Positions 3,024 through 59,874 of a stretch of DNA of 64,000 nucleotides are shown piece by piece; position 1 is the first letter of the stretch, and each line of letters begins with the position of its first letter. Origin of the DNA: Antedon mediterranea (taxonomy: Eukaryota > Animalia > Echinodermata); NCBI RefSeq assembly GCF_964355755.1, contig NC_092676.1, positions 11,447,888 to 11,511,887 of the forward strand, written 5' to 3'. Below the pieces are notes generated by a model, which was not told the origin of the DNA, searched no databases, and worked only from the letters and a program-made list of their open reading frames with translations. The translations under genes were made by a program, and so were the position numbers.

Positions 3024-4481
3024 ATTTTCTTTACTTTCTAACTGTATACGTCTGTATACAGCTTCTTTCGCTGTACCCCGAGTATTGCACATTCGTGCTT
3101 GTTTTTTTAGTGTGTAATATTACTCTAGTAGCTAGATCAACTTTTGTATGCACTTTGAGGTCCAGAGAATTTGACTTCAGAAATTGGTTTAGGGTGGTCA
3201 AACAATCATATTTGGCTTGGTTACACATTTTGAAAATGTGGCGAAAGGTCAAAGTGAAAGGTCATAAGACCAAACATAAATATGTCCTTAAATCTCAACA
3301 ACCACTGGTCACAACGAGGTAATTTTGGTCTTAAATTAATCAGAAGGTATACATTTATATTCAGTCTAATGGGACATTTTATTAAAAAATGACCGGAAAT
3401 GCCATTTATGACCTTTGACCCACAACCCAGGGCATGTATGTATCTCCGTAACTACTGGTCGTAGACACTTGAATTTGGTTTTAAACTGTTCGAAATATAT
3501 GTTTTGTTATTTGTTACACATTTTGAAAAATGTTACAAAAGGTCAAAGGGTCAAGGTCAAGGGTTATTTGAACAAATAAAAAAAGGTACTTGTATCTCGG
3601 CAACCACTGGTCGCAGCAAGTCAATTTTGGTCTCATTTTAGTCAAAAATGATCTGAAATTCCATTTCTGACCTTTGACCCACATACCAGGGCATCTTCAT
3701 ATCTCTGTAAGTAAAGGTCGTAGAAACTTAAATTTGGTATCAAATTGTTCGAAATATACATATTTACATTCATTGTAATAGAAAATGTGGTTAAAAGATG
3801 AACAGAAATACTATTACCAATATTTCAAACAAAAAACATATCTACACAACTTATCCTTAGACAGTAATGTTATGCAATAACTGATACTTTAAATTGTTTT
3901 AATTTCAAGTACTAATTATTGCTGTCCCCGAGGACATTTTGATAGAAACGTTAAGCTCAACAGTTCTTTTCAGAATGCTAGAAGTAACTTGCCATATGTA
4001 TCCGATTAAACGCCCCAGGCATTTATTGTTCAAAAGGGTTTTTAGGGGGAAAGGAGGCAACTTTATTTGGGGTATAATATGGTAACATGTATAATCAAAT
4101 AAATACCACCTAGATGTAAAAAAATACTGCACAATTAATATCAAAAAGTAATAAAATTATGTGATAATGCTTGGTAAACTGTAGATTATTGTAGTTAATG
4201 AAATGTGTTGACGTGATACAATTATTGTGTAAATGCATGTGGCGGGGCGTTTATTCCACATGGTGTTCTATTGGAGGGAATGGTGGCGTTTATTTGAAGG
4301 AATACTCTAATTTTAATAACTGTATTTCGTTTCTCAACTGATAAAAGGTACTTTACATGATTCGTTTTCCTCTTTATGCTTTTTAACGAAATGTTTCTGT
4401 CTTTTAAAATAAAAGTGATAGATTCCATTAAATGGATCTTCTCCTCTATGGAACGCCTCCTCTGCCTTCAGTTCACAATGG

Positions 4482-4839
4482 TCATGCAGTACACACCAAT
4501 CGTCATGCAGTACACACCAATGGTCATGCAGTACACACCAATGGTCATGCAGTACACACCAATGGTCATGCAGTACACACCAATCGTCGTTCACATTTAT
4601 CATGCAGTACACACCAATGGTCATGCAGTACACACCAATCGTCATGCAGTACACACCAATAGTCTTGCAGTACACACCAATCGTCATGCAGTACACACCA
4701 AACATCATGCAGTACACACCAATCGTCATGCAGTACACACCAAACATCATGCAGTACACACCAATGGTCATGCAGTACACACCAATTGTCATGCAGTACA
4801 CACCAATCGTCATGCAGTACACACCAATCGTCATGCAGT
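4482..4839 (+). repeat. 21-bp minisatellite (CATGCAGTACACACCAATCGT)n, ~17 units
   Basis: Directly visible tandem array; produces the MQYTPIV/HAVHTNR repeat ORFs. Confidence 0.95.
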
Positions 4840-5173
4840 GAAATATTGCGTAATTTATACCGCCACCTATCGACAAAATCGAATATCACGTGACGTTTAT
4901 TAGACGGCTGTAAAACTAGGCCATCGACTCTAAGATTTCTTTTATGTTTGACATACTGTACTTATTTTAACCGCTACACATCTCTGTGAATGCTCTGTTT
5001 TTTTATATATACAATAATTTATTATGCGAGACACAGGCGCGGCTAGGAGGCCATTGCAATTATTGAATTCCATAAAAGAAGTTTAAATAGTCTTAGTTTT
5101 ACAGCCGTCTAATAAACCTCACGTGATATTCGATTTTGTCGATAGGTGGCGGTATAAATTACGCAATATTTGA

Positions 5174-5593
5174 CTGCATGACGATTGGTGTGTACTACAT
5201 GACGATTGGTGTGTACTGCATGACAATTGGTGTGTACTGCATGATGTTTGGTGTGTACTGCATGACGATTGGTGTGTACTGCATGACGATTGGTGTGTAC
5301 TGCATGATAAATGTGAGAAACGATTGGTGTGTACTGCATGACAATTGGTGTGTACTGCATGACCATTGGTGTGTACTGCATGACCATTGGTGTGTACTGC
5401 ATGACGATTGGTGTGTACTGCATGACGATTGGTGTGTACTGCATGACGATTGGTGTGTACTGCATGATGTTTGGTGTGTACTGCATGACGATTGGTGTGT
5501 ACTGCATGACGATTGGTGTGTACTGCATGACCAATGGTGTGTACTGCATGACGATTGGTGTGTACTGCATGACGATTGGTGTGTACTGCATGA
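5174..5593 (-). repeat. 21-bp minisatellite, inverted counterpart, ~20 units
   Basis: (ACGATTGGTGTGTACTGCATG)n, the reverse complement of the 4482-4839 array. Confidence 0.95.
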
Positions 5594-7494
5594 TAAATGT
5601 GAACTGAAGGCAGAGGAGGCGTTCCATACTCCTCCAGGTGCCAGTATAATGATATAAAACAATGACACATCATTATCCTGACACGATTGCACTCATAATG
5701 GATCTTCATTCTATCATCTATTTGTTTGTAACTACAATTTGACAACAATCTTTTGCATAGTTTTAAATGCCAATACATAGTTTCATTACTATTGTACAAT
5801 ATGTCCAGCTTTCCTGAAAACACCCTTGTGTACTGTAGTACAGTGTTGTAGTATGATTTTATCATGATAAACTTCTGATGCTTTTATTGTCAATACATTC
5901 AGTACCTAAAACATGTCAAAGTTTCTAGTGGTATTGATAATAAATCTCCAGAAATATATATTTTGTTTTATTATCTACACTGGGAACAGACGTGTATATG
6001 TATAAGTTTTGTCGTTGACATTCAAAACTATTATGCAACAGTGTTACGGAATAATGACAATGAATTGGTCTATTATAGTTGTCTCTGATACCTTTTATTA
6101 CATGATTGTACTTCCACCAGGATAGAATGAGGTTTAATCCCGTTATTATTCTTATTATATATATATATTTGTTTATATATATATCTGGGGTGTATTTATT
6201 TGATTATACATGTTACCATTATTACACCCAACAAAATAAACGCCTTCCCTGAATAAATAAATTCCCGAGGCTTTTATTCAGGTAACTACAGTAAATTACT
6301 TTTAGCATTCTCAAAATATTTGAACGTTCGGGGGTCAACAATACTTTCTAGCATTATTATAAGCAAAAGTACAATTATTACAAACAGTAAAGGATTTGTT
6401 TTAATTCCTACAGTATAATGAAATCATTAAGCATCAATTATTGCATAACATTACTGTCTAATGATAAGTTGGGTAGATATGTTTTTCATTTAAAAGATTA
6501 ATAATTAATAGTATTTCTGATCATCTTTTATCCAAATTTTCTGTTAGAATGAATGTAAATATGTGTATTTCTAACAATTTGATACTAAATTTAAGATTCT
6601 ACAACCTGTACTTACAGAGATAAGAAGATGCCCTGGTATGTATGTCAAAGGTCAGAAATGTTACTTCCGGTCATTTTTTACTAAAATGTTTCATTAGACT
6701 GAATATGAATGTATACCTTCTGAACATTTTGAGACCAAAATTTACTCGCTGTGACCAGTGGTTGCCGAGATACAAATACCTATTTGTGTTTATTCATATA
6801 ACCCCTGGCCTTGACCTTTTGTAACATTGTTCAAAATGTGTAACAAATAACTAAATGTATATTTCGAACAATTTGAGCCCAAATTCAAGTCTCTACGGCC
6901 AATAGTTACGGAGATACAGACATGCCCTGGTTTATGGGTCAAAGGTCAGAAATGGCATTTCCGGTCATTTTCGACTAAAATGTTTCATTAGACTGAATAT
7001 GAATGTATACCTTCTGATCAATTTGAGACCAAAATTACCTCGCTGTGACCAGTGGTTGTCGAGATTTAAGGACATAATGGTGTTTGATCTTATAACCTTT
7101 GACCCTGACCTTTTGACCTTTCGCCACATTTTCAAAATGTGTAACCAAGCCAAAAATGATTGTTTGACCACCCTAAACCAATTTCTGAAGTCAAATTCTC
7201 TGGACCTCAAAGTGCATACGAAAGTTGATCTAGCTACTAGAGTATATAACATTATGCCTAATAATAATATAATATTTAAACGTGTTTAGAAATGGCCATT
7301 TTGAAAAGACACAGTCCTTCTCCGAGACCTGTGATATACAAAAAAAAAATTAATTTAATGATTAATAATAAATATTTATTAACCAAGTAAAAATATCCAC
7401 ATAAATAATCTAGTTCCTAAAAAATATCAATTAAATCTATATAAACGAAAAATGTATATCCCGCTCTAGCATGCATCCCGCTCGATCCATACAA

Positions 7495-8609: not shown

Positions 8610-9227
8610 GGCTCTAGTAGCCTACTAACTAAAGGCCTATACCTAGTGTAGTAGGCTACTACCTACCCTCCCCTAGCTAGCCTAGGCTAGGCCTGGCCCT
8701 TCATTAGTAAGAATACAGGTCAACCCGTACCCATGATGGGTACGGGTACGGGTTGGTTTGGGTACGGGTTGACCAGCACCCCATAGTAAAGGGCCAGCCA
8801 GCAGGAGGCCTATAGCGTATATAGGCCTAGCTAGGCTAGCTAGGCCTCTAGTATAGGCCCTCTAGGCTAATCCGGCCTAGCTAGTAGCCTACACCCGTCA
8901 ACTAGGCCTAGCTAGGCTAAGCTAGGTCTACAGCTCAGGGGCAGGTATGCTACTTACCTATAATGACTATCATATAAAAATATAACAGATATTTTGAGTT
9001 GAGTAGCATGTTAAAAAGGACGCCGTGGTTAGGATTCCGGCACCGGAACTCAACTGCCCAGCGTTAGGGATTCCGACACGCTATTGCGCATGCCCAGAGC
9101 GAGGTAATCGGCGACTCTATACTTATCAACAGCGATGGATTATTTCATAGCTGCGCCACACGGCGAACTAGCCTAGAGGCCTTCTAATATGGGATCCACT
9201 AATCTAGGCTAGGGCTACCAGTTAGAC

Positions 9228-10800
9228 GGGATCCAGTCAAGTTGCCCCATCGCAAAGTCGCCCCATACAAAGTCGCCCAATACAAAGTCGCCCCATCGCA
9301 AAGTCGCCCCATAACAAAGTCGCCCCGGCACAGTCGCCCCATCGCAAAGTCGCTCCATCACAAAGTCGCCCCATCGCAAAGTCGCCAAATCTCAAAGTCG
9401 CCCCAACGCAAAGTCGCCCCATCGCAAAGTCGCCCACGGTTTTATTTTGGTAGTTAGTACGCTGTTTTAATCATATCGGTTGCGTTTGATTGATCGCGTT
9501 GTTACTTTGGTCGCGCTAAATGTCGTATTCGTATACATAATGTTTATCCTATTATATACATAATTTGTGGTTTAATTTTTATTTTACAGGTTTTAATGGA
9601 GTGATGTGCTTTTTAAAAATCATTAAAAAAATAGTTCCATGTTTGAAAGTTCTAAAAAGATTATCCCTGATTTATAGTTTCAAAAATGTTCATTTAATAT
9701 GATTTTAAAATTAGTTACCAGAGCCACAATTATGAATCTTTCTTCAACCTACGCGTTGATACCAGCTCATTTTTTAGGATAATATAATAAATGTATAAAT
9801 GTGTAGTAGGCCTTCGTATAGATTAGTTAAAACATAGAGATATTATAGTATAATATCTCTATGGTTAAAACAATAACAGCGTTGTAAGAGTGTGACACAA
9901 TGAGTGTTATAGGCTACTTATTGATCATTTTGCATTTATTGACAAGTTGTGTCTATTGTTATTTAATTTTATTATGACTTTTCAAAATGACTTTTTATAT
10001 ATGCAGGTATTTTAGCAAAATTAAAACGCTACATTTTTACCATGGAAAAACCATCGTAGAGTATCGTGTGCGTGTTTTTAAAAAAGGGGAATCCCCGGCC
10101 GATGGTCAGCAGAAAGACGTAGCAGCTGTGAGAAAACAGGTACCAGAAAGGCGCAGCTCCGATTGGTTTCAGATTGCAAGTCGCCTTTTATTCAAAATTG
10201 TCATTTTTTAAGGCACACATCTTTCTCATCATAAACCTGTAAAATTAAAAAAAAATCAATTATTAATATAGCCCTAATAATAATAATAAATATTCATCGA
10301 CCAAAGTAAAATAATCTAGATCGTAACATCATTTTATTGCGACCAAAATTAAACACGACCGATTTCAAACGCGACGCGACTGATATCATCGTAAAACTCC
10401 GGTGGGGTTTCCCCATCTTCAGATGGGGGTTTTCCTCTGGTGAGTTCAGTGCGACCGCGGATGATGATGATGATGGGGGAGCGTGCCGATCGTGTAACCT
10501 GAGAATACATGGCGGGGCTTCCCATTTTATGCCGTGTTATTTTGTGTATCATTGCGACATTTTACGCACTTGTAAACTATTTTAACGTTTTGGGGCGACT
10601 TTGCGATGGGGCGACTTTGTGTTGGGGCGACTTTGCGATGGGGCGACTTTGCGTTGGGGCGACTTTGCGTTGGGGCGACTTTGCGATGGGGCGACTTTGC
10701 GATGGGGCGACTGTTTTGGGGCGACTTTGCGATGGGGCGACTTTGTATTGGGCGACTTTGTATGGGGCGACTTTGCGATGGGGCGACTTGACTAGCATCC
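9228..10800. mobile_element. Mutator-like foldback MITE with tandem-repeat TIRs and 9-bp TSD
   Basis: CAGTTAGAC at 9219-9227 and 10801-10809; ~210-bp arms made of 15-17-bp (AAAGTCGCCCCATCGC) repeats; GG..CC ends. Confidence 0.85.
9833..9863. other. 31-bp CA..TG palindrome in a 7-bp direct repeat (putative P-type excision footprint)
   Basis: GTTAAAA|CATAGAGATATTATA-G-TATAATATCTCTATG|GTTAAAA. Confidence 0.7.
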
Positions 10801-10943
10801 CAGTTAGACTACGTGACCAGTTGTGGGCCTATAGTATTTATTTTGTAATTAAAAAGTGGTTGCTTCATTCATATATTAAATTCATATCATTATGAATTAT
10901 ATAATTACATGACTAGTTTTTTGATTTTTCATAACGCATTATA

Positions 10944-11915
10944 TAGTCTGGGTTCCAGACGGAGTTTTGTCTTAATATTAGTTAAAAGATAAATATTTTG
11001 GCACAGATGGCGTTTCATACGTATACTACTTGATTTTGGATACTCCGTCTGGGGAAACACGCACAAGTCACGTGGTTTGACACCAAGAATTCTTGGTGCA
11101 TACGATTATCCGGTTGACTAGTTTCAGCTGCATGCGATTGGCTACTCACTCGTACACTGTGTAAATATTCATATTTCAGAATTTTAAAGACTCAACAACT
11201 AAGATGATGCGCATGCGCTATGTTACGTTTAGACAATGTGTACTTCTTGGGTACATTTATGAAAGTTCTGAAGGCTAGAAATTATTTTATATGCCTAGTA
11301 CTAGTAGTCTGGTAAACATTCGATGGGATCTTTGAAACATGAAAACTCGTCTTGATATATGATAGGCTAGCTTCTCCGCAAATCAAACATTGAATGGATC
11401 ATTTATTACGCGGAGATAATTTTGATTTAATTCCCACCGAGACCCTGTCCTGTTCTGTGTGGTGGTGTAGCCCTGTTGTGTGCCGGTGGTATGTAATGTA
11501 GGCCTAGGCCTACTTCATTGGCGTTTTATTTGGCAGGTCATACACGCGAGTTGAGTAGGACCTACGAAAGAGGCCTAGGCCTAAACAATTAATAAACAAA
11601 ACAACTTGGCATTACTATTTTATATTTCAACAGTCTCGATCGTACATTAAGCACTGGTTGGTAGGCCTACGTACTCGATCTCTTTCATTTTGAAACAAAA
11701 TGATCATTGGTTGATTCGAAATCCATATTTACATACCGCCCGCCCCATATAGCCAAATACGGTATGATAACCTACGTCATTCTTATCGTATGTTTGCGGT
11801 CTGCAAATCGATTTCTATACGTGTTTCACAAGTCTGTATTTTCAGACAAAAATCGCGGTCGAAATAAAAACAAATAAATAAAAAAAAAAGATAATACAGA
11901 CTTGGGGCAAGTCTA
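10944..11915. mobile_element. Non-autonomous element with 9-bp TSD and hairpin termini (possibly AcademH-like)
   Basis: CGCATTATA at 10935-10943 and 11916-11924; ends TAGTCTGGGTTCCAGAC and GACTTGGGGCAAGTCTA. Confidence 0.8.
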
Positions 11916-13023
11916 CGCATTATACTGTAGGGCCTACATATACAACATGCAATCACAAGTTGATTTGTTGAAGGCAGCCACCGCGTGGATGTGAAAAAAC
12001 TGTTCGGGAAGTCAGGGTCACAACGCTAAAAACAGCATTACGATTCTTAGATAGATACTGATACTTATTAATATCATTATAATTATTTTAACGCGTAGTC
12101 ATATTTTAATTATTAATTCATGTATGGCATAGGCCAAGTTTCATCCATCGCTCTCTCGCTCGCGCAACGACTATCTAGGCTACAGTAAATCCCTATAACA
12201 CTCCGACTCTCCGTGGTGTGGCACTATTATTAGTGCAAGCTATAATTAATTCACTTCCCAGAGCTCTGGACATGCGCAATAGCGTGTCGGATTCCCTAAC
12301 GGTGGGCAGTTGAGTTCCGGTGCCGGAATCCTAACCACGGCGTCTGTGAAGTTGGTTACTAGTTCCTAGTTCCTTATTCAAATTCAATTAAAGGGACAGT
12401 CACAAATATTTAAAAAACAGATTTTAATACGTAATAACTGTCTAATTGAGTTGTTATTGCATCAACATGTTAGCCTTGACCTCCTCTACTTCTTCCGGTC
12501 AAAGTTCAATAACATTTGATGCATTTACAGCGAATAAGTAACTAGCTTTTACGGACGTTATAACACTTGACCTACTTAATATTTTCAAAATATTTTGTTA
12601 TAGATCGATGACCCTTGACCTACTCTACCATTTGCCACCCCAGTTCCGCGAACTTTTTTGCATCTACGCCCTCTACGGCGAATAAGTAACTGCCTTTTAA
12701 TTATGCAAATTAGGCTACTTCCCGTTGTCGAAAAATGTCCTAACGTTGATAAATGTGTTCAGTAGGGTCTAAAGAACACATTTCATCAAAAAAACCTTTT
12801 CTTGCAATTTGTGTGAGTTAAAAGTCTAAATCCCATGGACTATATGTTCCATACAGTGTAAATCAACTGTTATTTAGAATTTCTTGATAAAATATATTGA
12901 TTGACAGTATACGATTATTGTTCACAGAGAAGAAGATATAATAGTTCGTGCGTTGTCATCGATTGATGAAATGTTTTATTCAACACAATTCCTGGCAGTT
13001 ATTATCTGACGGACGCTGTCTCA

Positions 13024-19103: not shown

Positions 19104-19628
19104 TTAAACATAAGTTTGGAACATTCTTCTCTTGGCTTGGAGACAGAATTCGCGAATGACATTCTCTGTATTAATGTTCATGTTAAAGTGTATGTTCATG
19201 AGGCACAATCCCGAAAGCTGCTCATAAGACATGTGATTTTGTAAACAGGTTTTCGTTCTCCATAAAGTCGAAAAACTCCGCTCAGCTTCAGCAGACGTTA
19301 CGGGCATAGGGCCTACGCGATTAGAAGAAGTGCACGCACATTCGGGAACACATCTGGATCCGCTAATTTTACACAGTCGCTTCCATCACTGAAGCTCGGA
19401 ATGAAGATGTTCGTGTCTTGGCAGATCATCGTACCAAATTCAAGTTCCTTGAAGACTTCTTCAACATTACACTTCGATAGACTTGGGTGCTACGCCAAAT
19501 ATGTTAGAGCATGGCCTGTTATCGGCAGAAAAACGTGTTTTTAACTCGGTTTGTTGATTTGGTAATACTGCTCGGTAGTAATCGTCCACAGTATCTCCAG
19601 GATGATTTGATCTGTATTGTTGTCTCAT
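19104..19628 (-). pseudogene. hAT transposase C-terminal relic (dimerisation domain; Tip100/ZMYM1/PRKRIR-like)
   Basis: ORF MPVTSAEAERSFSTLWRTKTCLQNHMSYEQLSGLCLMNIH carries the ERSFS motif; an upstream frame reads RQQYRSNHPGDTVDDYYR; frameshifted. Confidence 0.85.
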
Positions 19629-26576: not shown

Positions 26577-27623
26577 AATTTATTTATTTATTTATTTATT
26601 TCGTTTTCTTTCAGTAGGGTAGCCCTCTCAGTAATAAAATAAAACTGCTCTTCCGAGGGGCCCTACGGCACATTTAAACAAAATTTGAAAACAACTTAAA
26701 CTAAACTTAAACTAAAACTTAAACTAAAACTAAACTTCAATGCATGTTCTCATTATTATTATAACTTTTATACCATATTTAAATATATTTCACTGGAACC
26801 ATCCTAGACCACCGGCAACAATAAATGAATCTTAACAAGTGATTTAAAACGGTTATAATTGTTTTGTTTTCTTAATTCATAAGGTAGGCCATTCCAGAGT
26901 GAACTTCCATAATAAACAAAACTACGTTTGTATATTTCGAGGTTACATCTGGGCAAATACAACAGATTATTTTCATAGTTTCTGGTTTGAATATTGTGTA
27001 CACTACTAATATATTGCAAAACATCACATAAGTATGAAGGTACAGATTCTTGTAAACATCTAAATATTGTACAAATTGTATGATATTCAATTCTTGTCTT
27101 AATTGTTAGCCAACCTAAATCATAATGCATTTGTCTAACAGGAGTTCGAATATTAGCACCTAGTATTAATCGTGCAGCTCTATTTTGTACCCTTTGCAAT
27201 TTTAAAATATGGGCATTTGAACCAGTACCCCAGACTGTTGAACAATAGTCAATATGTGATAAAAATAGAGCATTGTATAATCTTTTAATAATTTTAGGAG
27301 ATGTAAAACTTTTCAATCTATAAAATAGATGTAGAATTTTTGATAGTTTTGCACATATAGAATCAATATGTACTTTCCATGAGAGTTGTTCATCAAATGT
27401 AAGTCCCAAGTATTTAAACGTTTCAACTTTCTCAATCGGAATGTTATCAAAAATTACTGTTTCATCTGTTGTTTTATTAACACGTGCATGAGTACCAAAA
27501 AGCATGTATTTGGTTTTATCAATGTTTAGAGTTAATTTATGTTTATCTAACCATTGTTTTACATTTTCCAACTGTTCAGTTAAAACTGTTGTAAGCTCTT
27601 CATTTGATTTACATGCATAAAAA
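26577..27623 (-). mobile_element. L2/CR1-group LINE, 3' part (RT C-terminus, 3' UTR, (TAAA)n tail)
   Basis: ORF 26804-27571 has WLDKHKLTLNIDKTKYM, KYLGLTFDEQLSW, HIDYCSTVWG and LQRVQNRAARLI; TTTA repeats at 26577-26601. Confidence 0.9.
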
Positions 27624-30600
27624 TAGGTATCCCAATGAAAAAATTCAGATTAATTGTTTTACTTTTTCTTTCAGTTAACCATAAAGGACTTAATGTAATT
27701 AGCATTTTGCAATTTAAATGATTGAAATCCGATTACCCGTTCTAAAGTTATGGTTATTTAAAGTGGTAAAAAATGTACGATTTTTTGCTTAAAAATGGTG
27801 TTTTTTGCAGTTAAAATTGGAAGCATTTTTAAAAGGTTATAACTTTTACAATAATGAGTTAAAAGTTTTGAATTTTGTTAAACCTATAGATATCACAGAG
27901 TTGTAAAACTCTATTTTTTTTGGAGCCTCAACGAAACCTATTTTAAAAATTATTGGTCCGCAAAGTTGGTCGGAAAGCATTTTGCGCCCATTTTTGTTGA
28001 ATTTCCCTAAAAAATGAAAAAAAATGCAATTTTTTCAATGATCTATAACTTTTGAACTATTGTACTAATTCATTTAATTTTTGTTTTACTTGTTAGAATG
28101 TAGTGTATATTTCATTAATAAATATATCAGAGATATGTGTAATATGAAACAATAATGTTTTTTTAATGGTGAAATTTAAAATTATCCCCAAAAAAATGAA
28201 AAATTATGTTAAAAACGGTGTGTACTGTTTCCTTTCTTTCACACTAATTTTTGGTAAGTATGATTATTATAATTATTATTTTAATGTACTTTATATTCAT
28301 AATTTCAATCATAAATACTATTATATATAACTTTTGAATACGTAAAACAAGATTTTAGGCCCGTATGATTATGACACCAAATCTAAGCCGGGCTAAGATA
28401 TGCTCTTTTAGGCAAACACACAATTGGTCAAAATAAACTCATTTAAAATAATCAATGTTAATTAAAACAATTAATTGTTTACCTGAATAGTATATATGCA
28501 CAAATTTGATACTGCAACAAAAAATGTGACATGACAACAAAAAATTAGAATTGTTCGTAATTCAATAAAGTCAATCTTATTTTGAATTTACATATCCCAA
28601 CAAACATAATACAAAACATAAAGATAGTCAAGTATCAACTTCCCGGGAAAATTGAGATCACAGGCTTACTATGTTGGATGTATTATGTTCGTAACATGGT
28701 GTCATTTAGAAAACTGCCTCTCCAAGGTGAGTACTTTTTTTTTCTTTATTTGATATCTGAATGATACTTATACTTAATAGAAAGACAAAAACACACATAA
28801 AAAAAATTACATGTTTTGCACACATTTATTATAATCCGTAAATTAGTTGACACCGTTACGCACATCATCAACAGTTCTTCAACAATTTGCCTGAAACTTT
28901 GCAAGAACATGAACAAAGAATGAGATGCCTACTTGCAATCAGCAAGTTTAAACCTCACTTTGAACATACCATATGGTTGTTTGTAAACCCAGCATTGTAT
29001 AATAAATACAAAATTCAATAGTTGATTATGTTGGTAACAAAGACACCAACAATTTTGACTGTTGATTCACGTCATCGCAGCTTTAAATTTGACCTGTATC
29101 CAGACGTTTTATTGTGTATATTATTAGTTGTACTGCTGGGGCTTCCTTATCAATGACCAGCGATGACAGACTAGCGCTCTGCACATGTGGTGTGGGTCAA
29201 TCTTCCAAATGACGTTCGTAACAGACTTGACACGACACACGTAAACATGTTTTACGAACATCAACAACATCTCTATAAACATAGGAAAATAACACTTATC
29301 AAAACGTAATACATTTATTGCAGAATACTTAATAAATGTATTGACTTATAATTGTATTTTATGTTGATCAACACACTTTAGGATACGTGTTATTAGCAAA
29401 GGACAGCATGTATGAATTTAATTTTATGTTCGTAACAGGCGACATGATTATTCAGTGAGGGTAATTGTGTCAAAGTTACGAACGTCAACAATGCATCAAT
29501 TGAAAGTCGGAACTACGTAATAATATAATACAACTTCACACAAAATTATATTTATTTAAAATACAAAATCAACATGATGATTTTAAATTAAATTTGTTAT
29601 TGTTAAAACAACGAAGATGTGTTTTATTTGGCAAAAAGCAGATGTTTATATTGATGTTCGTAACAGCTGACCCCAAAGTATCGGCTGAAAAATGTTTGTT
29701 TACACCCAGGGAACTGTAAAAAGCACTAAGTAAATTATGATTTTAACATAAATTTCTACCATTAAGTAAAAAATCAAAGGTTATTAGTGTCCATAGATAC
29801 TTATATTACAATAATATTTGAAAACATACCTTGATTGTGTTCCAATGTGATAGGATATTTGATGATAATAAAGTAATATGATGTGCGTAACACAGCGCAA
29901 AAAAAGTTGACACGAAAGGTGTTATCATCTGTAGCAGTGACATTTGACCTGTATCCAGACGTTTTATTGTGTATATTAGTTGTACTGCTGGGGCTTCCTT
30001 ATCAACAACCAGTGATGACAGACTAGCACTCTGCACATGTGGTGTGGGCCTGTCTAATCTTCCAAATGATGTTCGTAACAGACTTGACACGACACGTAAA
30101 CATGTTTTGAATTGTTTTTTTTTAACTGATATAAATAGCCATACAAAATTATTAAAACTTTCCAATGTTTTAGTTTAATAGATAAGATATAAATTACTAA
30201 TAATTCGTTGATTGATTAAACCTATGTTAACTCGCAAGCTAGCCCCATATGATGTTCGTAACATTTCTTGACACGACATGTTACGAACATAAGCCTGTGT
30301 TTACCATTCGAATCAAATTACATAATTTGCTATTTTTTCACATTCTCTAAAACGATCTCATAGAGCAACACATAATGCATAATGCACACACAAAAAACAC
30401 ATAAATATTTATTTATTTTTATGTCACAATTTGGTGTCTATTTTTGGTACATAAATTACATTTATTAAGGTTTCATTCTTAATATTATCTTACATATTAC
30501 CTATATCAACAACTTATATGATTGTAAAATATATGTTCATTTAAATACATATAAGACTAATTAGCAACATGTTTTAAAGAAATATATAAAATCTCTGCAG

Positions 30601-31780: not shown

Positions 31781-32826
31781 ATAAAAAAGCGCAGTGTCGT
31801 CTGCATAGAGGACTGTTTTACAAATCCCATCTACACTATCATGTAAGTCATTTATGTATAAAATAAACAACAAAGGGCCAAGAATTGAGCCTTGTGGTAC
31901 CCCATAGTTGACATTTAAAATTTCAGATTTTTTTCCATTACAATTAACAAATTGTTTGCGATTTTTTAAATAATTACTGAACCATGCAAGCTCAGTGTTT
32001 ATCATTCCAAAGGTGCATAATTTACGTAATAAAATATCGTGGTCTACCGTATCAAACGCCTTTTTTAGGTCAAGAAAAATTGCTCCAGTTACCAAGCCAT
32101 TATCAATATTTTTATATATATAATTGCATACATCTATCAGTGTAGTAGAAGTTTATTCATTTATATGATTCATAACTTGATTATGGATGCATCTTTCAAA
32201 AACTTTCATAACAATAGGTATAACAGATATTGGACGGTAGTTGTTAAGTTCATGTTTACATCCTCCTTTATAAAGCGGAGTAACCTTAGCACATTTCCAT
32301 TCACTTGGAATAACACCAGATCTTAATGACCAGTTAAACAAAAAGGCAAGACTTTGAGAAATTTGTGAAGATGCAATTTTAAGTAACCTAGCGGAAATCC
32401 CATCAATTCCAGTAGCTTTTCCAATTTCTAACTTTTCCAACAAAGCTTCAATTTCATTTCCATTAATATCTTTAAAGTTGAAACGTTGTTGACATTGTGA
32501 TAACGATTCAACGGTAATATCGTTTTGGTTGTCATTAAAATGGGATGCAAGTTCATTAGAAATTGAACAAAAATATTTATTAAAATGATTAGCAATATCA
32601 GTTGGATTGTTTATTTCATTACCGTTTACATTGAGAGTTGTTTTAGTTTGTTTCTTTTTATTGGGTAAAAAGTCTTTCATGGTTTTCCATAATGTTTTAG
32701 TGTCATTAACATAATCCTTTAATTTATTATTTATATAGTCGCGTTTTAGTGATTTAGACAAATTATTTAATTTATTTCTTGCCTTTTTGTAAGAATTCCA
32801 ATCATCTATGTTCTTAGTTTTTTTTG
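31781..32826 (-). pseudogene. L2/CR1-group LINE ORF2 relic (tether plus RT domains), 5'-truncated
   Basis: Motifs [70 protein letters not shown]; the frame breaks near 32150. Confidence 0.92.
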
Positions 32827-32916
32827 TATATAATGAACTGCAATTTTTATCTTGTTAACATATATTTTCTTATTCAATATGTCAGTAAGCACAAGTAAAA
32901 CACAATTAAGATAAAA

Positions 32917-45285: not shown

Positions 45286-47014
45286 ACATAGACATTTTAA
45301 AACAAACGACGTTTAACGGTAACACGCGTCTAACGGCAAAACAATTACAGTGGGCGGTGGGCGGTACAATACTAAATGCATAAGGGGCCGTGTCAAAATT
45401 ATATTACTCCGTGTAACGCGGTGCACCGCGGTTAACGTTATCCTGTGTATTACAATTCGTTAATGAGGTGGGTGTAACCATGTTCATTGAAGCGTTAAGT
45501 ACTTAACACTACTAACGTTTTGCCTCATTCATATTCATGAGGTAATTACGGATTCGTTTGCTCTGTTTACTGTAATAAAAAAACGGTTTGAACATTTTGT
45601 AATACATTATACGTTATGTGTGTTGTTTCCACTGTTTCCAAATTTAGGGGAATTCCAATTTTTTTAGGCTGAATTATTTTTTTTTCAGCAACAACACGCG
45701 GTATAATGTAGTACAGTAGAGTATGCTGTAGTAACATCTGTTCAGTGGACACGGGAATTCCCATTTGTGCTGCAAGGCTCTGGCTATACGTACATACTGT
45801 ATACAATGTTATTCTTAGTATAGTAAAGTGCAGTAATGATTTTTTTAAACATTAAAATACAGTTACATATTTTATCTATATTTTCATTGTAAATACAATA
45901 AAAAATCACAATTTTCCCACGGTCTTTCACATTTTCCCACGGTGATCCCAGTAGGCCTACTGCACGCATGGTCCTAAAAGGGCTTTATACTTAAATGTAG
46001 GCTTTCTTTTTTTATTTAAAATAAACCTATGATCATGGTATACAATAGTGTGTACGTGTATTTAATGCGAACGATCTTTGTAAAAAACAATTCCATAAGT
46101 AAGAAACTACCATGTGTGTGTTCGTGAGCCGCACGATCAATCGTTGGAAAAACAATTCCGAGCGAGCCGAACGACTGTTGTAGAAATTCCATTTGATGTA
46201 CACGCACCCATCTGGTAAGAAATTACCACGTGCGTTCACCATGCGAGTTTTTGTTATCCGAACGTACGCCGAACGACTGTTATGAAATTCCATTTGATGT
46301 ACACGCACCCATCTGGTAAGAAATTACCACGTGCGTTCACCATGCAAGTTTTTGTTATCCGAACGTACGCCGAACGACTGTTATGAAATTCCATTCACTA
46401 ACACTGTCAGCAGTAGGCTACAGTATTGCGCTAGCCCAGTGGCGATCACGTGTGTTTCGCGCTCTAGTCGAATTCTCTGGATAGAAGAAATAGAAAAAAA
46501 AATTACCATTTTCTACAAGATATTTGTGTAAAGTCAATCGCGATGCAATTATTTTATTTATGATTTTTAATGAAAAAAAAAAAAAAAAAAGTACACGAAT
46601 ATTTTTTTCAGAATTAGGCCTATATTTTTCACCTAATAATATTAGCACCGTCGTCTTGTTCATTTCGCTAGCCTAGTCAACAACGTCATGCGTGTATATA
46701 CCACCAACGACATCGCGCTATATTTAGACGTTGACAGGGTTTGCCCACTGTCTGGTCATGAAAGCGTACGGCTTGTTTTTGAACGTCTAATGGTATAAAT
46801 AATAGTAACAGTGTAATAAAATTAGGCAGGATATTTATTGTTTAAAAAAGGCTTGCATTAATTTCAAAAATCAACGGAGCGTATCTCCTGTTTCTGCTGT
46901 ACTACTCATGAATATTCATTTGCTTACTAACGCAATCAACGAAATCCGCAAGTTTATGCATAATCGAACATCCGTTAGGAGCGTTAGTGCGTTAACCGCG
47001 GTAAAAAAAAGAAA

Positions 47015-48940
47015 AAGGCCAAACTTTTCACTCTCCCTTCTTACTTTTTCAACCAGACCTTCCATTTCCTGTGCATTATCTGTTAATAAAGTAGTATCAT
47101 CAGCATACCTTATATTATTTATAGTTCTGCCACCAATAGATATTCCACTATTGCAGTTTTCTAGAGCCAATCTCATAATATATTCTGCATAGACATTAAA
47201 CAAGTGCGGAGACAGTATGCAACCTTGTCTCACCCCTTGTTTTATTTTAAGCCAAATACTGTCGCCGCATGCAGTCCTCACAGCAGCTTCCTGGTTATCA
47301 ATGACCTGAGGAGTTCTACTACATGCCTTGGAAAGCCCATTGCTATTAAAATATTCCAGAGTCTTTGATGCTGGACCGTATCAAAAGCTTTTGAATAGTC
47401 AATAAAGCACATATATAGCGGACGGTTAAATTCTATAGCTCTTTCCATTATATTTCTAATATTTGATATTTGGTCTCTTGTACCTCTTTCTTCCACAAAA
47501 CCTGCTTGTTCTTGAGGAATTTCACGACGAATGTATTGTTTAGTCCTCTCAACAATTATGTACAGCATAATCTTACTCGCGTGTGATATCAGAGAGATAG
47601 TCCTATTGTTTTTGCATTCTCTTGTATCTCCTTTCTTGGGGAGCGGTATAAATATTGATCTAGCCCAATCAGTCAGCCAGCTCTTATCGGTCCATATTAA
47701 GTTACATAGATTATGCATTAAAGTGATACCTTCACCCCCTGTCTCCTTAAGAAGCTCAGCTGGAATATCATCATGTCCAGGTGTTTTCCCATCCTTAATT
47801 TTCTTTATTGCAAATTCCACTTCTGATCTTAGTATATTTGGTTCATGTTGATCTATCTCAATTGCTTTTGTAACTTGATCTGCATCTTTACTATCATACA
47901 ACCTTTGACAATATTCTTTCCACCTATCCTTAATTTGGTGACTCTCGGTTAGAATCGCACCGTCCCCATCTTTAATAACATTTGATTTTACAACCCTCTT
48001 GCCAGTAATTTCTTTTACAGCTTTAAAGAAGTCTCTAGAATGATTGTTAACGAAATGAGTTTCAACCTCCCTGCATTTTCTTTCAAGGAAGGTCCGTTTA
48101 TCTTGTCTAGTAACACGTTGGATACTTTTACTAATATGTTTATATTGACTGCGGTCTCTCTCATTGTGTAAACCATTTGCTTTTATTTGCCGCCTCTCAT
48201 CTGCCAGTGCAACCACCTTGTCCGATATCCAAGGGGCTCTGCATTTCTTTAGTTTTGGTAAATTTTTCCGAGCTGCTAATGAGATTGCATTTTTTGTCAA
48301 CTCCCACAATTCATTCGGTTTCTATTTTTTTTCCTTTTAAGTATTACCTTAAAAGAGTTTCTGACTTCTGCTCGATATTGGTCATTTATTTGTTTAACAT
48401 CATATCTGTGTGGTGTGGTAGAGAGTCTCGTTTTACTATCTTTATTTTGCAACGGATTTCAGCAGTTAAAAGTTGGTGATCTGAGCCGCAGTCCGCTCCT
48501 GGGTACGTTTTTGCCACTTTGACACTTGATCTCCACCGATGTCTAATCAAAATGTAATCTATTTGATTTCGGTATTTTCCATCTGGTGATGCCCAAGTAC
48601 AGTATATAGTCGTCGTGGATGCTGTTGAAATAATGTATTTGTTAAAACCAGGTCATTCTCAATGCAGAAATCCAGCAGTTTTTCACCTCTCTCGTTAGCA
48701 TGGCCAAGCCCAAACCTTCCCAGTGCATGATTCTTCTCCAGGTTACTTCCAACTTTGGCATTAAAATCACCCATAATAATAACAATGTCTCTCTTTGGGG
48801 TTTTATTAATAGTTTCTTGGAGTTCTTGGTAAAAGTAATTAATTATCTCCTCATCTACTGAAGAGGTTGGCACATACACTTGAATAATTGAGATATTGAC
48901 TGGTTTTGCTATAGATAATTTGCCTTTATAAATCAATCTA
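47015..48940 (-). pseudogene. RTE-clade LINE relic (AP endonuclease plus reverse transcriptase), truncated at both ends and frameshifted
   Basis: EN motifs IIQVYVPT and IMGDFNAKVG; RT motifs IPLPKKGD..C.NNRTISLISHASKI, FIDYSKAFD, GVRQGCILSPHLFNVY and RYADD. Confidence 0.92.
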
Positions 48941-49254
48941 CCAGCCCTACAGTAGGACTATGATGTACAATGATAGATGTGAGTATAATAATGTATGGAT
49001 AATATTAATAAAGGTGGACACGATTCTCAAAGAGGTAATCTGCACTGATATTTAAACATCTATTTCGTGCCTAGCTTACCTGGATAAACCAACAATAGCC
49101 CCTTCTCCTCGAAGAGCGAGATATAACTCGAAAAGTAGAAGTTTTCATTGAATCCCCCTCTCCACAAATGGTATAGTCCATGAACTATGCCCTCAAGTGG
49201 GAGCCTGCCCACAAACCACCATCATCATTTCTTTTCGAGACATGAAAGAGTTAA

Positions 49255-50750
49255 GAGAGCCAGTCACTAAAAATCAAACATTAGGTGGCAAGGGTCAAAA
49301 TTTCGAATTGGCTCATATTTTGCACATTGGTAGACCTTGATCTAAGTAAACCTGATGTGTAGATTGTTTGGTAAAATATCGCTTAGTTTTTGAGAAAATC
49401 GAAAAATAACGATTTTCGGCCAATTTTGTTAATTTTTGGTGTATAATTTACATTAAGTTTAACAGCCTCTGGAAGCCAAACGTAGCAACCTAGCGTTTTA
49501 ATATTTTACACTTGCGTTAACTATCATCTTGACAATAATTTAGTAAAGTTTCAAAAAATTTGATGAAATTTTAAGATTTTGACTAATTAATTACTAATTA
49601 GCATATATAAAACTCTTAAAAAGTAGGGTAAAAACAAACGGTTTTTTTTTCATGTGCGACGAATTTTTGTAAAATAAAAAAGTCATCAATCTAAAGTTTA
49701 GATACTAATATTTATGAATCAAGTAAAAAAAATTTGGGGAAACTATTTTGCACTCCGCGCCAGAGCCACAAAGTTGTAAGAAATTCAAAGATTTTATCTG
49801 TCGGCAAGATCAATCAGATGTACCTATTGTTCTCTATTTAGCAATCTAAGTCGAATTAAGCCAAACTTTTATTACGAGAAACAAACTTGAAAGATAAATT
49901 TTGAATTAAGTTTCAATTTAAACACAAACTAAAAATACGTTTCTGGTAAAATTTCAATCACTAACCAATATACGAAATTAAGCAATTAACTAAAAATCAC
50001 TCACTTATTCTTTGTCAAACCACATTATTATAAATTATTCCATCCTCTCATAGTTTATAGGATAAAACTGAAAAACAAATTTGTTTTAACTTGTTATCGT
50101 TTTCCTGTTTGTCGAACCTGGTCGAACTTACTCAACGAGAATGTTTCAAAACATTAACCACAGTAGACAAAACACTTTACTGCGTATATTCGATAGATAA
50201 CGATATCTTCATTGACGTTGACAACGGAACAGATTTGTTATCCATTTTAGTTTATGTCTTACAATGTAAAGACGTGTTGAAAATAATTCTTATATATAAT
50301 TATTGTCTGATGGCTTTAATGTTCTTTTAAATCGGTTGTCGGCGGAGCTTGTGGATTCGATAGAAAAGACCGCAAACAGAGCACTGAAGTCCTACCTTTA
50401 CAAGCATGCCAGAAGGAAATCGCTGCACACAGATACATGTTTAGGTTTACAGGCATCGATAGTGAGTGGTACTATTTGTGCAGCAGGGAAATGGAAATAA
50501 AAGACGCGAGTCACATCAACAACATAGAGTATGGAAGCAGGTCCATGAAGGTGTGGATGGCGTATGGTGTTGGTGCAGGACAAAATCTACTTTTGAGTAA
50601 ATTCTGTGTGCCTTCGAAGCTACCCAATTTAATTCATAACCAAGATACAACGTCTGATTAAAATAAATCAAGTATCATCTATTGCAGTAAAAGCAAGAAT
50701 ACAAGCCAAGACATCTCATGAAGAACAAGCTGATATAAAAGACTACCCGC
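49255..50750 (+). mobile_element. Possible Sola3-like element left end with a transposase fragment
   Basis: TTAA|GAGAGCCAGTCACT terminus; ORF 50437-50661 contains INNIEY...KVWMAYGVGAG; no partner end found. Confidence 0.4.
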
Positions 50751-52456: not shown

Positions 52457-54031
52457 ATACCAGAGGGGTACGTTTACATCAAATGGAATTTCACAAGTCA
52501 TTTGGCGTTCGGATAACAAACTTGTTACTTGCATGATGAATATACATGTGGTAAATTCTTAACAGAGGGGTACATGTACATCAAATGGAATTTCACAACA
52601 GTCGTTCGGCGTTCGGGCAACAAACTTGCATGATGAATATACACGTGGTAATTTCTTACCATATGAGTGCGTGTACATCAAATGGAATTTCTACAACAAT
52701 CGTTCGGCTCGCTCGGATTTGTTTTTCTAACGATTGGTGCGGCTCACGAACAGTAACACACATGGTAGTTTCTTACTTATGGAATTGTTTTTCTACAAAG
52801 ATTCGCATTAAATACACGTACACTATTCTATACCATGATGATAGGTTTATTTTAAATAAAAAAACAATAGCCTACATTTAAGTATAAAGCGTGAGAAAAT
52901 TGTGATTTTTTATTGTAAATATTTAGATCAGACCAAAAAAAAAAATTTACAATGACAATATGATAAAATAACTATCATTACTGCACTTTACTATACTAAA
53001 AATAACATTGTATACAGTATGTACGTATGCATTTGTTTGTTTATTCATTTCCACTGAGCATTAGCGAATTTACACAAATGTCACAGATCGTTAAGCTCAT
53101 ACCATTTATAAAAATATTTCACTAAAAAGCTCACTCAATATTAAAATTGATTTTCAGTTTTCGATGCAGATAATGATTAAAAACGTAATTAAGTCACATT
53201 ACTACCGACAAACAGCGATCGGAACAACATCCATTTCTTATTCGCCTTCCTACCGGTATACCAGCAACATTTGTGAATAGGCCTACGAATCATTATAAAC
53301 ATTGTGCAAATGGTACGCATCGTCAAGCTCATTCATTCATAAAACGAATGCAGTGTTTTATTTCACTCACTAAAAGCTAATTGAATATTAAAGTTGGTTT
53401 TCAATTTTCACTGCAGTAATTACTATTAATTATTGATTTTTATATCGGGTTTTTTTTTTTCGAAAAAGTATTTTGTAAATATTGGAATAAAATTATATAT
53501 ATATAAACAAATTCTTCTAAATTTTTGTAATTTACTGTTTAAAAAATATTAAGTGAGACCTATCGGTTAAATTGATTGTATTGGTTTTATTATTACTATT
53601 ATTTAGGCCTAATTATTGATTTTTATGTCGTTTTTTTTTAAAGTATTTTATAAATATTTGAATAAAATTATATAGGCCTATATTTTAACAAAATTATTCT
53701 AAATTTGGATAAATAGTTTTAATTTTCTATTTAAAACAAATATTAAGTATGACTCAAATTTATTTTGACCCCCAAAAACCTGCTTGCGCTATACATTAAG
53801 TCACACAGTGTAACGTCACATTATACTAACGACAAACAGCGATCGGAAATCCATTCAAATTTCTTATTCGCCTTTCTACCAGAATGTATATACTGTACCA
53901 GCAACATTTGTAAATACAATTAATTGATTGAATCATATAAACATCGTGCAAATGTCACGCATCGTCAAGCTCATTCATTATGATTGAATATTAAAGTTGG
54001 TTTTCAATTTTTACTGCAGTAATGACTATTA

Positions 54032-54783
54032 CCGTAGTTCCTCGGGTATAATCCCACCTCGGGTATAATCCCACCCCCGACATTACGATTACCTTCGCAC
54101 GCAAGCATATCCCCGGGCAAAGTCTCAGTGTATAATTTAATATTAGGCCAGAGGTGGGCCTAGGCCTACTGTAGCTAGCTAGGCCGACGTCAATATTTTT
54201 AAAGAAATTCTCACCAAAAAATAGAGTAATTTCTCTGAATTTGGCTGACTTAAAACTCATCAAACATTGTTAAGTTGAATACAACCTAAGGCTAGTATGC
54301 TTCGATCGTCACGTTCTGTACATCCTTTCGCCGTGTACATTCTTTCTTGTTGTTTACACTACTGCATGCTTAATTACCGTAAAAAAAACACCGCCCTCTA
54401 TACCGACCTGCTTGTGCAGTAGTTTGTGTCACATGCAACAACATGCGATTTACACAGAGAGCTCGAGCGTGGGTGAACCACCGGGATGGAGAACTCGTAT
54501 GATGTCGATTTAGGAAGTTAGGCCTAGATCACATTTTAGGGTATTTTTTAAGTAGAAATCTGGGGGAAAAATACGGTAGGCATAGCACAGGTAAGACCAA
54601 TTAGGCCGCCTAGGTCTAGATGGCCTGGCCTACATCGGAATATAGCTTTAGATCGTAGCTACAGTAGAAGAAATATCGTCATTTTCAATTCATGCAGTGG
54701 GAAATCCCCGGGTATAGTCCCACCTCCCAAATTCGGGCAAATTTCACGTACAAGGGGGTGGGATTATACCCGGGGAACTACGG
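54032..54783. mobile_element. Tc2/pogo-like MITE, variant A
   Basis: ta|CCGTAGTTCCTCGGGTATAATCCCACC ... GGTGGGATTATACCCGGGGAACTACGG|ta; an empty-site paralogue lies at ~53420. Confidence 0.9.
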
Positions 54784-56100
54784 TAATTATTGATTTTTAT
54801 ATCGGGTTTTTTTTTCCCAAAAAGTAGTTGGAATTAAATTATATATATAATATATATATAAATAAATAAAATAACAGCAGAAAACTTGGTTACTTCATTG
54901 TTTTAATCACTACAAATATATATATATATATATATGAACAAATTTTCTATTAAGTGAGACCTATCGGTTAAATTGATTGTTTTGGTTTTATTGTGTGTAT
55001 TAGCAGCATGTTTTATAACATTTGTTTTTAATTTTTCACAATGACAACATGGTATTTTTTAAGTGGTCATGTTTTAACATGACAAAAAGTATTTGATAAG
55101 TTAGAAATAAAGAAACATTCAAAATGAATTAAAATAACAATTTTGAAACAACGTTCAAGTAATTTCCGTAGAAAGGAAGTTATACAATAGACCCATCTAT
55201 CAGCAAAATGTGCAAAATACAATTAATCACATAAACATTTTGCTAATGCCACGCATCGTTAAGCTCATGGCTGTTACGATACCCCTTCATGATGACTTCT
55301 TTTCACTACTATACTCCAATTTTTTTTTTTTGTATCATGTCGTGAATAAATCGATTGGTCAAACTTGCTTGATCAATATAATAAAGCATCATGAGTGTTT
55401 TATTTCACTAAAATGTTAGATTTATAAACGAGAATGTCAATAATTCAAAGTGAAATTTTTTTTTAAAGCAAAATAAATTCTTTTCAAGCTCGGTAAAGGT
55501 TAACGTTTGCATGAGGTTGTGTTTAAAATGTATTTAAAACATGTTTTAACATGACCACAAAAAATGTAAAAAATAAAACAAAATTCAAAATGAATTCAAA
55601 TGATAATTTGAAAACAACGTTAAAAAGAAAATTGAAAAAAAAAATGAAACAATTAAGGTTATTATCATATCGTACATGTGACCCTACCATGGAGTAATCA
55701 CTCCGTGGTACAATGTCGATAACATTTCGACATCGAATTGCTATCGTCTGGCTTACGTAACAGAATCCACGACGCTCATTCAGGGTACAATATAAAAGTA
55801 AAAATGAATCGCTTGCTTTTAGTTTTACCAAACCCATCCCGAAATGCGTGTCCTGTATAAATAAAACAAGTATTAGGATTAATAATAATCTTTAGTTAAC
55901 TCGTCGTAGAACTGTGATCCTGTTCTACTATGGAGTAATAGAACACAATGTCGATAACATTTCGACATCGAATTGCTATCGTCTGGCTTATGTAACAGAA
56001 TCCACGACGCTCATTCAGGGTACAATATAAAGTAAAAATGAATCGCTTGCTTTTACCAAACCCATCCCGAAATGTGTGTCCTGTATAAATAAAACAAGTA

Positions 56101-56926: not shown

Positions 56927-56978
56927 TATTAGGATTAATAATAATCTTTAGTTTAGTTTACTGCAGTAATGACTATTA

Positions 56979-59872: not shown

Positions 59873-59874
59873 TA

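What the first reader, a model, noticed from the sequence alone, without database searches (positions are those of the whole stretch)
10935..11924. Mobile element whose two ends conserve secondary structure rather than sequence (covarying, two-state terminal hairpins)
Seen: a perfect 9-bp TSD (CGCATTATA) brackets 972 bp that has no real TIR. The left end is TA+GTCTGG-GTT-CCAGAC, and the right end read inward is TA+GACTTG-CCC-CAAGTC: the same 6-bp stem/3-nt loop with compensatory changes. At each end, the inner hairpin arm plus 5-6 nt has an exact subterminal complement (CCAGACGGAGT 10955-10965 vs 11042-11052; AATACAGACTTG 11893-11904 vs 11829-11840). Each complement is followed, after exactly 1 nt, by a shared GAAACACG box (11054-11061; reverse complement 11820-11827). 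Established: AcademH transposons make 9-10-bp TSDs and encode a RecQ-like helicase. Inference: the ends may be recognised as alternative ssDNA folds rather than as dsDNA TIRs, which would be unusual for a TSD-forming element. I cannot confirm whether this architecture is already described.
Basis: partly seen in the sequence, partly recalled or inferred. Interest (0 to 1): 0.85.

Follow-up and report, generated by a model that had tools for sequence, protein, structure and literature searches.

The report
Hairpin-tipped gene-less animal transposon
This is a real, multi-copy, gene-less jumping DNA element of an animal genome whose two ends differ in letters yet are both self-complementary, which suggests, without showing it, that a helicase-carrying transposon of the little-studied Academ type would handle its ends as folded single strands.

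Summary
The element is 10944-11915 (972 bp, TAG…CTA, no ORF). Assemblies of public runs show sharp boundaries with many different flanks, and an empty site with one copy of the 9-mer, so the 9-bp duplication is real. TAG tips match curated Academ consensi, and 9 bp fits AcademH, but no autonomous partner was found. Between the two ends, seven base pairs differ and all stay paired. (1) The ends do form a degenerate TIR (6/8, 12/22) plus a perfect 8-bp sub-TIR. (2) Among copies the right-end stems are invariant, so there is no within-family covariation, and template switching could also explain the end-to-end pattern. (3) Shorter forms keep the right tip hairpin but skip both boxes and the left inner arm, and only the right end is predicted to be a balanced two-state fold. 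New here: the two boxes can pair with each other, one base from each long helix. The scan noted hairpin ends before on fungal AcademH-like elements (unchecked notes). Verdict: a new variant of a known kind; tip hairpins plausible, switch unproven.

The parts
10935..10943 (+). Left copy of the 9-bp target-site duplication
   Evidence: Sequence; empty-site contigs carry the 9-mer once (joint 10943 to 11947 in runs X8 and X13)
10944..11915 (.). Non-autonomous element, 972 bp, TAG...CTA; longest stop-free frame 58 codons
   Evidence: Loose ends before 10944 in 100/37/84/7 contigs and behind 11915 in 44/2/14/3 contigs; frames
10946..10960 (+). Left tip hairpin, 6-bp stem, 3-nt loop
10955..10965 (+). 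Left inner arm plus 5 nt; pairs with either the tip arm or 11042-11052
10984..11033 (+). Segment shared with other repeat forms; many contigs join it at 10972-10991 or leave it at 11025-11033
   Evidence: tables 2, 5 and 7
11042..11052 (+). Left subterminal complement (11 bp, exact)
   Evidence: skipped by the short forms
11054..11061 (+). Left 8-bp box (one arm of a perfect sub-TIR); can pair with the right box
11062..11819 (.). Non-coding interior, variable among copies
   Evidence: 28 of the 29 listed substitution rows inside the element lie at 11161-11682; no Rfam match
11820..11827 (-). Right 8-bp box
   Evidence: three low-depth variant rows
11829..11840 (-). Right subterminal complement (12 bp exact; 14 of 15 when extended)
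   Evidence: (I8); no variant row at 2%; degenerate in short forms (table 5c)
11841..11892 (.). Right spacer with a small hairpin and a poly-A run; variable
   Evidence: 13 of 16 variant rows
11893..11914 (-). Right inner arm and tip hairpin (7-bp stem 11898-904/11908-14, 3-nt loop)
   Evidence: no variant row at 2%
11916..11924 (+). Right copy of the 9-bp target-site duplication

Best explanation
This is a multi-copy, gene-less DNA transposon with a 9-bp target duplication and self-complementary tips, likely moved in trans by an AcademH-type transposase and its RecQ-like helicase. Shown: boundaries, duplication, many insertion sites, TAG tips, and pairing kept at both ends although the letters differ. 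Inferred: a DDE transposase binds the short degenerate TIR, cuts at the TAG tips and integrates with a 9-nt stagger. The helicase would open the last 20-110 bp of each end so that the tip hairpin forms, and that fold, more than the letters beyond TAG, would be what selection keeps. The long helices and the box-to-box helix would be an accessory scaffold of the long form rather than a required switch, since shorter forms skip them.
For: Boundaries and empty site. 83 of 93 curated bivalve Academ 5' starts that I saw begin exactly with TAG; two begin with the same 8 letters as the left tip (PMC10294476, supplementary file 24). AcademH makes 9-10-bp and AcademX 3-4-bp duplications (passage of PMC10045372). 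Left against right end: five letters of the inner arm differ; all five are mirrored in the subterminal complement and two also in the tip arm (seven compensated pairs, none broken), while all three loop letters differ. At the right end 0 of 16 variant rows fall in the helices, 13 in the spacer and 3 in the box. Ends vary less than the interior: 1 of 29 rows, P 0.003; run X1 alone 1 of 19, P 0.03 (table truncated to 40 of 75 rows). Joints of the short forms land on 11893-95, so they keep the right tip hairpin.
Against: No autonomous partner: no Academ-type or helicase domain among 114 window frames of 72 aa or more, no genome held, no relatives in other collections. No covariation among copies; invariant pairs say nothing for or against a fold. 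One contig (X13, depth 2.2) changes the loop-closing pair of the right hairpin without compensation. The seven compensations need not be independent: one template switch per helix gives the same picture. None of the 93 Academ-1 starts showed a 6-bp/3-nt tip hairpin by eye, so the hairpin is not a general Academ trait. The left end folds no better than shuffles overall (z -1.3 and -1.5; right end z -3.2 and -3.0). The AcademH paper could not be read.
Confidence: 0.5

Rival explanations
1. Same element class, but the ends are read as ordinary double-stranded DNA. Each end carries three copies of a short transposase-binding motif in alternating orientation, and nearby inverted copies are kept alike by polymerase template switching or conversion. 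The folds are a by-product.
For: A degenerate TIR and a perfect sub-TIR exist. Each end's hexamer occurs at the tip, reversed, and again about 100 (left) or 80 (right) nt inside; a further copy of the right-end hexamer lies at 11064. Template switching homogenises arms of short inverted repeats (abstract start of PMC8604942, search listing). No within-family covariation. Short forms skip the inner copies.
Against: One protein would have to accept two different hexamers, each confined almost wholly to its own end. The same stem and loop geometry and the same 1-nt box offset occur at both ends. Template switching can invert the spacer, yet no loop inversion is listed at 11905-07 at the 2% level.
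Confidence: 0.3
2. One reading: both ends are two-state ssDNA switches (long helix against tip hairpin), and both states and the box are needed for transposition.
For: Mutually exclusive helices share the inner arm at both ends. The right end is near balance (tip 0.21-0.86, long 0.11-0.73 at 37 C, by strand). In the whole-strand fold the boxes pair with each other, 1 nt from each long helix (P 0.35-0.57 at 37 C).
Against: The left end is not balanced (long helix 0.93-0.95). Many contigs leave the element at 11033 (81/35/53/6 loose ends), and joints run from there to 11835-36, 11866 or 11893-95, skipping both boxes and the left complement (one more example). Caveat: the shorter sides of these joints are only 20-29 letters, and I could not see whether the short forms have intact left tips and their own duplications.
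Confidence: 0.12
3. A non-autonomous element of another family with 9-bp duplications (hATm, or a MULE with poor TIRs).
For: hATm makes 8- or 9-bp duplications and starts with TAG (PMC6004678 passages). A hAT dimerisation-domain remnant lies at 19107-19385. MULEs make 9-11-bp duplications (recalled, no call).
Against: hATm termini are a conserved TAGGGTG; here the tips read TAGTCTG and TAGACTT, which resemble Academ starts. Nothing links the hAT remnant to these ends.
Confidence: 0.06
4. A rolling-circle Helentron derivative (HINE/DINE-1 type), whose ends also carry subterminal inverted repeats, a nested inverted repeat and a stem-loop.
For: Similar vocabulary of end structures (PMC4067079 passages).
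Against: HINEs and DINE-1 insert at TT and have asymmetric ends. This element has symmetric ends and a 9-bp duplication confirmed by an empty site.
Confidence: 0.02

Closest known systems
AcademH lineage of the Academ superfamily (Kojima 2020, Mob DNA 11:15; not held, seen only through passages of PMC10045372 and PMC10799480)
   Same: 9-bp duplication; animal host; TAG tips like curated Academ consensi.
   Different: No coding sequence and no partner found. TIR only 6 of 8. Tip hairpins and nested complements, which I could not check against the paper's figures of termini.
Bivalve Academ families labelled Academ-1 (PMC10294476, supplementary file 24; 5' starts of 93 of 100 consensi seen)
   Same: TAG start in 83 of 93; first 8 letters of the left tip identical to two of them.
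   Different: They are autonomous and several kb long; none of the 93 starts showed a 6-bp/3-nt tip hairpin by eye; their duplication lengths and 3' ends were not visible.
HINE / DINE-1, non-autonomous Helentrons (PMC4067079, passages)
   Same: Gene-less, high-copy, subterminal inverted repeats, an inverted repeat nested with the terminal one, stem-loops; the partner carries a helicase.
   Different: Rolling-circle, TT insertion, asymmetric ends; no 9-bp duplication.
hATm MITEs (PMC6004678, passages)
   Same: TAG start, 8-9-bp duplication.
   Different: Conserved TAGGGTG termini and clear TIRs, absent here.
IS200/IS605 elements (recalled, no call)
   Same: The functional analogy: subterminal hairpins recognised on single-stranded DNA.
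   Different: HUH chemistry, no target duplication, prokaryotic.

Membership tests
AcademH | 9- or 10-bp target-site duplication | tested here: met
   9 bp; empty site and right boundary; criterion from PMC10045372 passage
AcademH | Academ-type termini (TAG start) | tested here: met
   TAG at both tips; 83 of 93 curated Academ starts are TAG; those are labelled Academ-1, not AcademH
AcademH | Terminal inverted repeats | tested here: inconclusive
   Degenerate only: 6/8, 10/17, 12/22; the usual AcademH TIR length could not be read
AcademH | Academ DDE transposase and RecQ-like helicase in an autonomous copy with the same ends | not testable with these tools
   Element is non-coding; none among 114 window frames; no genome held
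hATm | TAGGGTG termini | tested here: not met
   Tips are TAGTCTG and TAGACTT
hATm | 8- or 9-bp duplication | tested here: met
Helentron / HINE | Insertion at TT without a long duplication; asymmetric ends with a 3' stem-loop | tested here: not met
   9-bp duplication, symmetric ends
   Right-end stems invariant at 2% in runs of up to three named organisms; left end seen only at 10% in a truncated table; compensation seen only between the two ends
   Short forms skip them, but their own mobility was not shown

The most novel reading that the evidence does not exclude
AcademH is a DDE transposon that works on folded single strands. The helicase unwinds the element, one strand folds so that the left long helix, the box-to-box helix and the right long helix stack with single-base hinges, and this intramolecular junction brings the two TAG tips together in place of conventional TIR synapsis. 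Refolding into the tip hairpins then sets up cleavage or integration. This would be a peel-off-like, structure-guided pathway in a eukaryotic transposon that still makes target duplications.
Probability: 0.12. Interest if true: 0.8.

Novelty: new variant of a known kind. Interest (0 to 1): 0.45.

Why it matters
Why AcademH elements carry a RecQ-like helicase has, as far as I could find, no tested answer. Ends that keep pairing while changing letters give a direct handle: a 1-kb, high-copy substrate with defined helices that can be broken and restored one at a time. If the fold matters, a duplication-forming eukaryotic DNA transposon would recognise single-stranded structure, a trait otherwise tied to HUH and rolling-circle elements. 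It would also explain why TIR-based annotation can miss such families. If it does not, this is one more non-autonomous Academ-like repeat.

Tried and rejected
No whole genome is held, so copies could not be collected or aligned; no R-scape or Infernal covariation test was possible. The AcademH paper is not held. The metagenome scan with the left 17-mer gave 31 loci; none extends beyond 21 nt, none has the 9-bp duplication downstream or an 11-nt complement, and 12-35 chance hits are expected for 1-3 x 10^11 bases, a size I assumed. No hit in viral contigs, GTDB contigs or phages. No Rfam match at E up to 1. No second copy in the window. No RNA holder listed; run X5 is only guessed to be RNA. 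Hairpin-transfer replication with loop flip-flop: no loop inversion row at the right end. A 10-bp duplication was rejected. The transposase-like remnant at 50453-50743 has no link to these ends. The bivalve library has no Academ-H or Academ-2 label; its sequences are cut after about 370 letters, 7 of 100 starts were not viewed, and of its 33 supplementary files only files 1-12, 24 and 25 were searched. The binomial used a miscount (31 rows); the right count is 29. Literature searches for a description of such ends found none; the key paper and Repbase/Dfam entries were not searchable, so this is not proof of absence.

Full report
Setting. The window is AT-rich (28-42% GC), repeat-dense animal DNA with LINE and hAT remnants. 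A frame at 50320-50661 matches a protein named by its source as from the feather star Antedon mediterranea at 92% over 53 residues, so the host is probably a crinoid. No whole genome is held, so family evidence comes from contigs of public runs laid on the window. I laid 5 of the 20 listed runs.

Observation. The right tip stem is 7 bp. In 20,000 shuffles of each end, tip hairpin and 11-nt complement never arose together; 12 of 18,250 mock ends from the window had both. The element is the only duplication-bracketed pair of hairpin ends in the window. A simpler scan for TAG…CTA with a 9-bp repeat found two cases, the other being a 2.9-kb tandem duplication. The longest stop-free frame is 58 codons, and there is no Rfam match.

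It is a mobile family. Contigs leave the window sequence exactly before 10944 in 100, 37, 84 and 7 cases (runs X1, X5, X8, X13), with flank agreement of only 0.37-0.52. They leave behind 11915 in 44, 2, 14 and 3 cases (X1, X6, X8, X13), with 15 and 10 more one base later, as expected from chance matches; summed depth in X1 falls from about 406,000 to 11,000 there. The insertion site is itself a repeat, and one contig each in X8 and X13 joins 10943 to the right flank with the 9-mer present once. So the element is 10944-11915 and the duplication is 9 bp.

Family assignment. AcademH makes 9-10-bp duplications and encodes a helicase; AcademX makes 3-4 bp (passage of PMC10045372). The AcademH paper itself is not held. 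As a test of termini I viewed the 5' starts of 93 of 100 curated bivalve Academ consensi (PMC10294476, supplementary file 24): 83 start exactly with TAG, 4 with TAC, 3 have extra leading letters, 3 are trimmed. Two share the first 8 letters of the left tip. All are labelled Academ-1, and none showed a 6-bp/3-nt tip hairpin by eye. hATm also starts with TAG and makes 8-9-bp duplications but has fixed TAGGGTG ends (PMC6004678 passages), not met here. HINE/DINE-1 have similar end structures but insert at TT (PMC4067079 passages), not met. No partner gene was found among 114 window frames. I put an AcademH partner at about 0.75; it is inferred, not shown.

Anatomy of the ends. Read inward, the ends match at 6 of 8, 10 of 17 and 12 of 22 letters, and the boxes form a perfect 8-bp sub-TIR, so the ends are degenerate TIRs. 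Of the ten differences in the first 22 letters, three are the loop, two are in the tip arm and five in the inner arm. All five inner-arm differences are mirrored in the subterminal complement and two in the tip arm: seven compensated pairs, none broken. These are not seven independent events, since one template switch per helix would copy several at once (mechanism: abstract start of PMC8604942).

Folding. With DNA parameters the left end prefers the long helix (-8.9 against -4.9 kcal/mol; P 0.93-0.95 against 0.02-0.06 at 37 C), while the right end is near balance and strand-dependent. Against shuffles the left end is unremarkable overall (z -1.3, -1.5) and the right end stands out (z -3.2, -3.0). 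The box helix has P 0.35 and 0.57 at 37 C and swings between 0.05 and 0.85 at 15 C, so it is a possibility, not a robust prediction. Any sub-TIR can pair this way; the exact 1-nt hinges at both ends are the notable part.

Variation among copies. At the right end, at a 2% threshold, all 8 substitution and 8 indel rows were listed: none in the helices or the loop, 13 in the spacer (partly poly-A slippage) and 3, at low depth, in the box. Over the whole element, 1 of 29 listed substitution rows lies in the outer 120 bp of either end (P 0.003; X1 alone 1 of 19, P 0.03). That table showed 40 of 75 rows, many X13 rows come from one contig, and variants near contig ends are not listed. Conserved ends are expected of any transposon, and invariant pairs are neutral on structure. 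One X13 contig of depth 2.2 changes the loop-closing pair without compensation. The left stems were seen only in the truncated 10% table.

Short forms. Many contigs leave the element at 11033 (81, 35, 53, 6), and joints run from 11032-33 to 11835-36 (12 contigs in X1, 7 in X8, among the rows shown), to 11866, or to 11893-95. An X13 contig shows left-end sequence, then 11841-85, then a right tip. These forms lack both boxes and the left complement and have a degenerate or absent right complement, but keep the right tip hairpin where it is visible. Summed depth is higher over the outer parts than over the interior in both lays, though depth is no copy number. The joints have short sides (20-29 letters) at relaxed likeness, and I could not see the left tips or duplications of these forms. 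Still, they argue that the long helices and boxes are not essential.

Mechanism. Shown: a gene-less element inserting with a 9-nt stagger. Inferred: mobilisation by an AcademH transposase; helicase-driven opening of the ends; selection on the tip hairpins (together about 0.5). The main rival is duplex recognition of repeated motifs kept alike by template switching (0.3). The strict two-state model gets 0.12.

Prior record. Seven searches found no paper describing such ends, but the key paper and Repbase/Dfam were out of reach. I also recall similar TAG-plus-hairpin tips on coral and fish repeats (recalled, no call). Earlier notes of this scan report hairpin ends with compensatory changes on two fungal helicase-carrying elements and hairpin-tipped elements with 9-bp duplications in another genome. 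I could not test them; they are leads, and they suggest the trait is lineage-wide rather than special to this copy.

Verdict. Real feature; new variant of a known kind; interest 0.45.

Noticed in passing
window 10803-10943 and 11925-12200: The insertion site is itself a multi-copy repeat; empty-site contigs exist in runs of two other organisms.
   Followed up: partly
window 10984-11033: A 50-bp segment with the highest summed depth of the left end; contigs join it with other left sequences and leave it at 11025-33, and some join a similar motif to 11757. It holds an ATGGCG motif at 11007 (YY1-like core; label recalled), and a related motif is common 100-170 bp inside the bivalve Academ starts.
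   Followed up: partly
window 10962-10978 and 11838-11854: A further 14-of-17 inverted match between the two ends at different offsets (I6); also an extra copy of the right-end hexamer at 11064.
   Followed up: no
window 9228-9435 and 10593-10801: Inverted arrays of a 16-bp minisatellite (about 12.6 units each, 91% alike) bracket about 1.15 kb: a fold-back-like element just left of the finding.
   Followed up: no
window 50453-50743: Remnant of a transposase-like gene, 92% to a 1046-aa feather-star protein with no Pfam family; ESM Atlas look-alikes are unnamed animal clusters, one with DUF7869 in 12% of members.
   Followed up: partly
window 19107-19385 (-): hAT C-terminal dimerisation-domain remnant (PF05699, E 3e-7).
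   Followed up: no
window 26807-27649, 31781-32854, 46919-48957 (all -): Broken LINE reverse-transcriptase and endonuclease pieces.
   Followed up: no
window 54010-59899: Near-perfect 2.9-kb tandem duplication (99.8%): recent duplication or assembly artefact.
   Followed up: no
window 3113-7251: Nested inverted repeats (832 bp at 83%, 1.1 kb at 84%) around a 21-nt-type minisatellite.
   Followed up: no
window 9019-9100 and 12263-12344: An 82-bp inverted match at 96% on either side of the region that holds the element.
   Followed up: no
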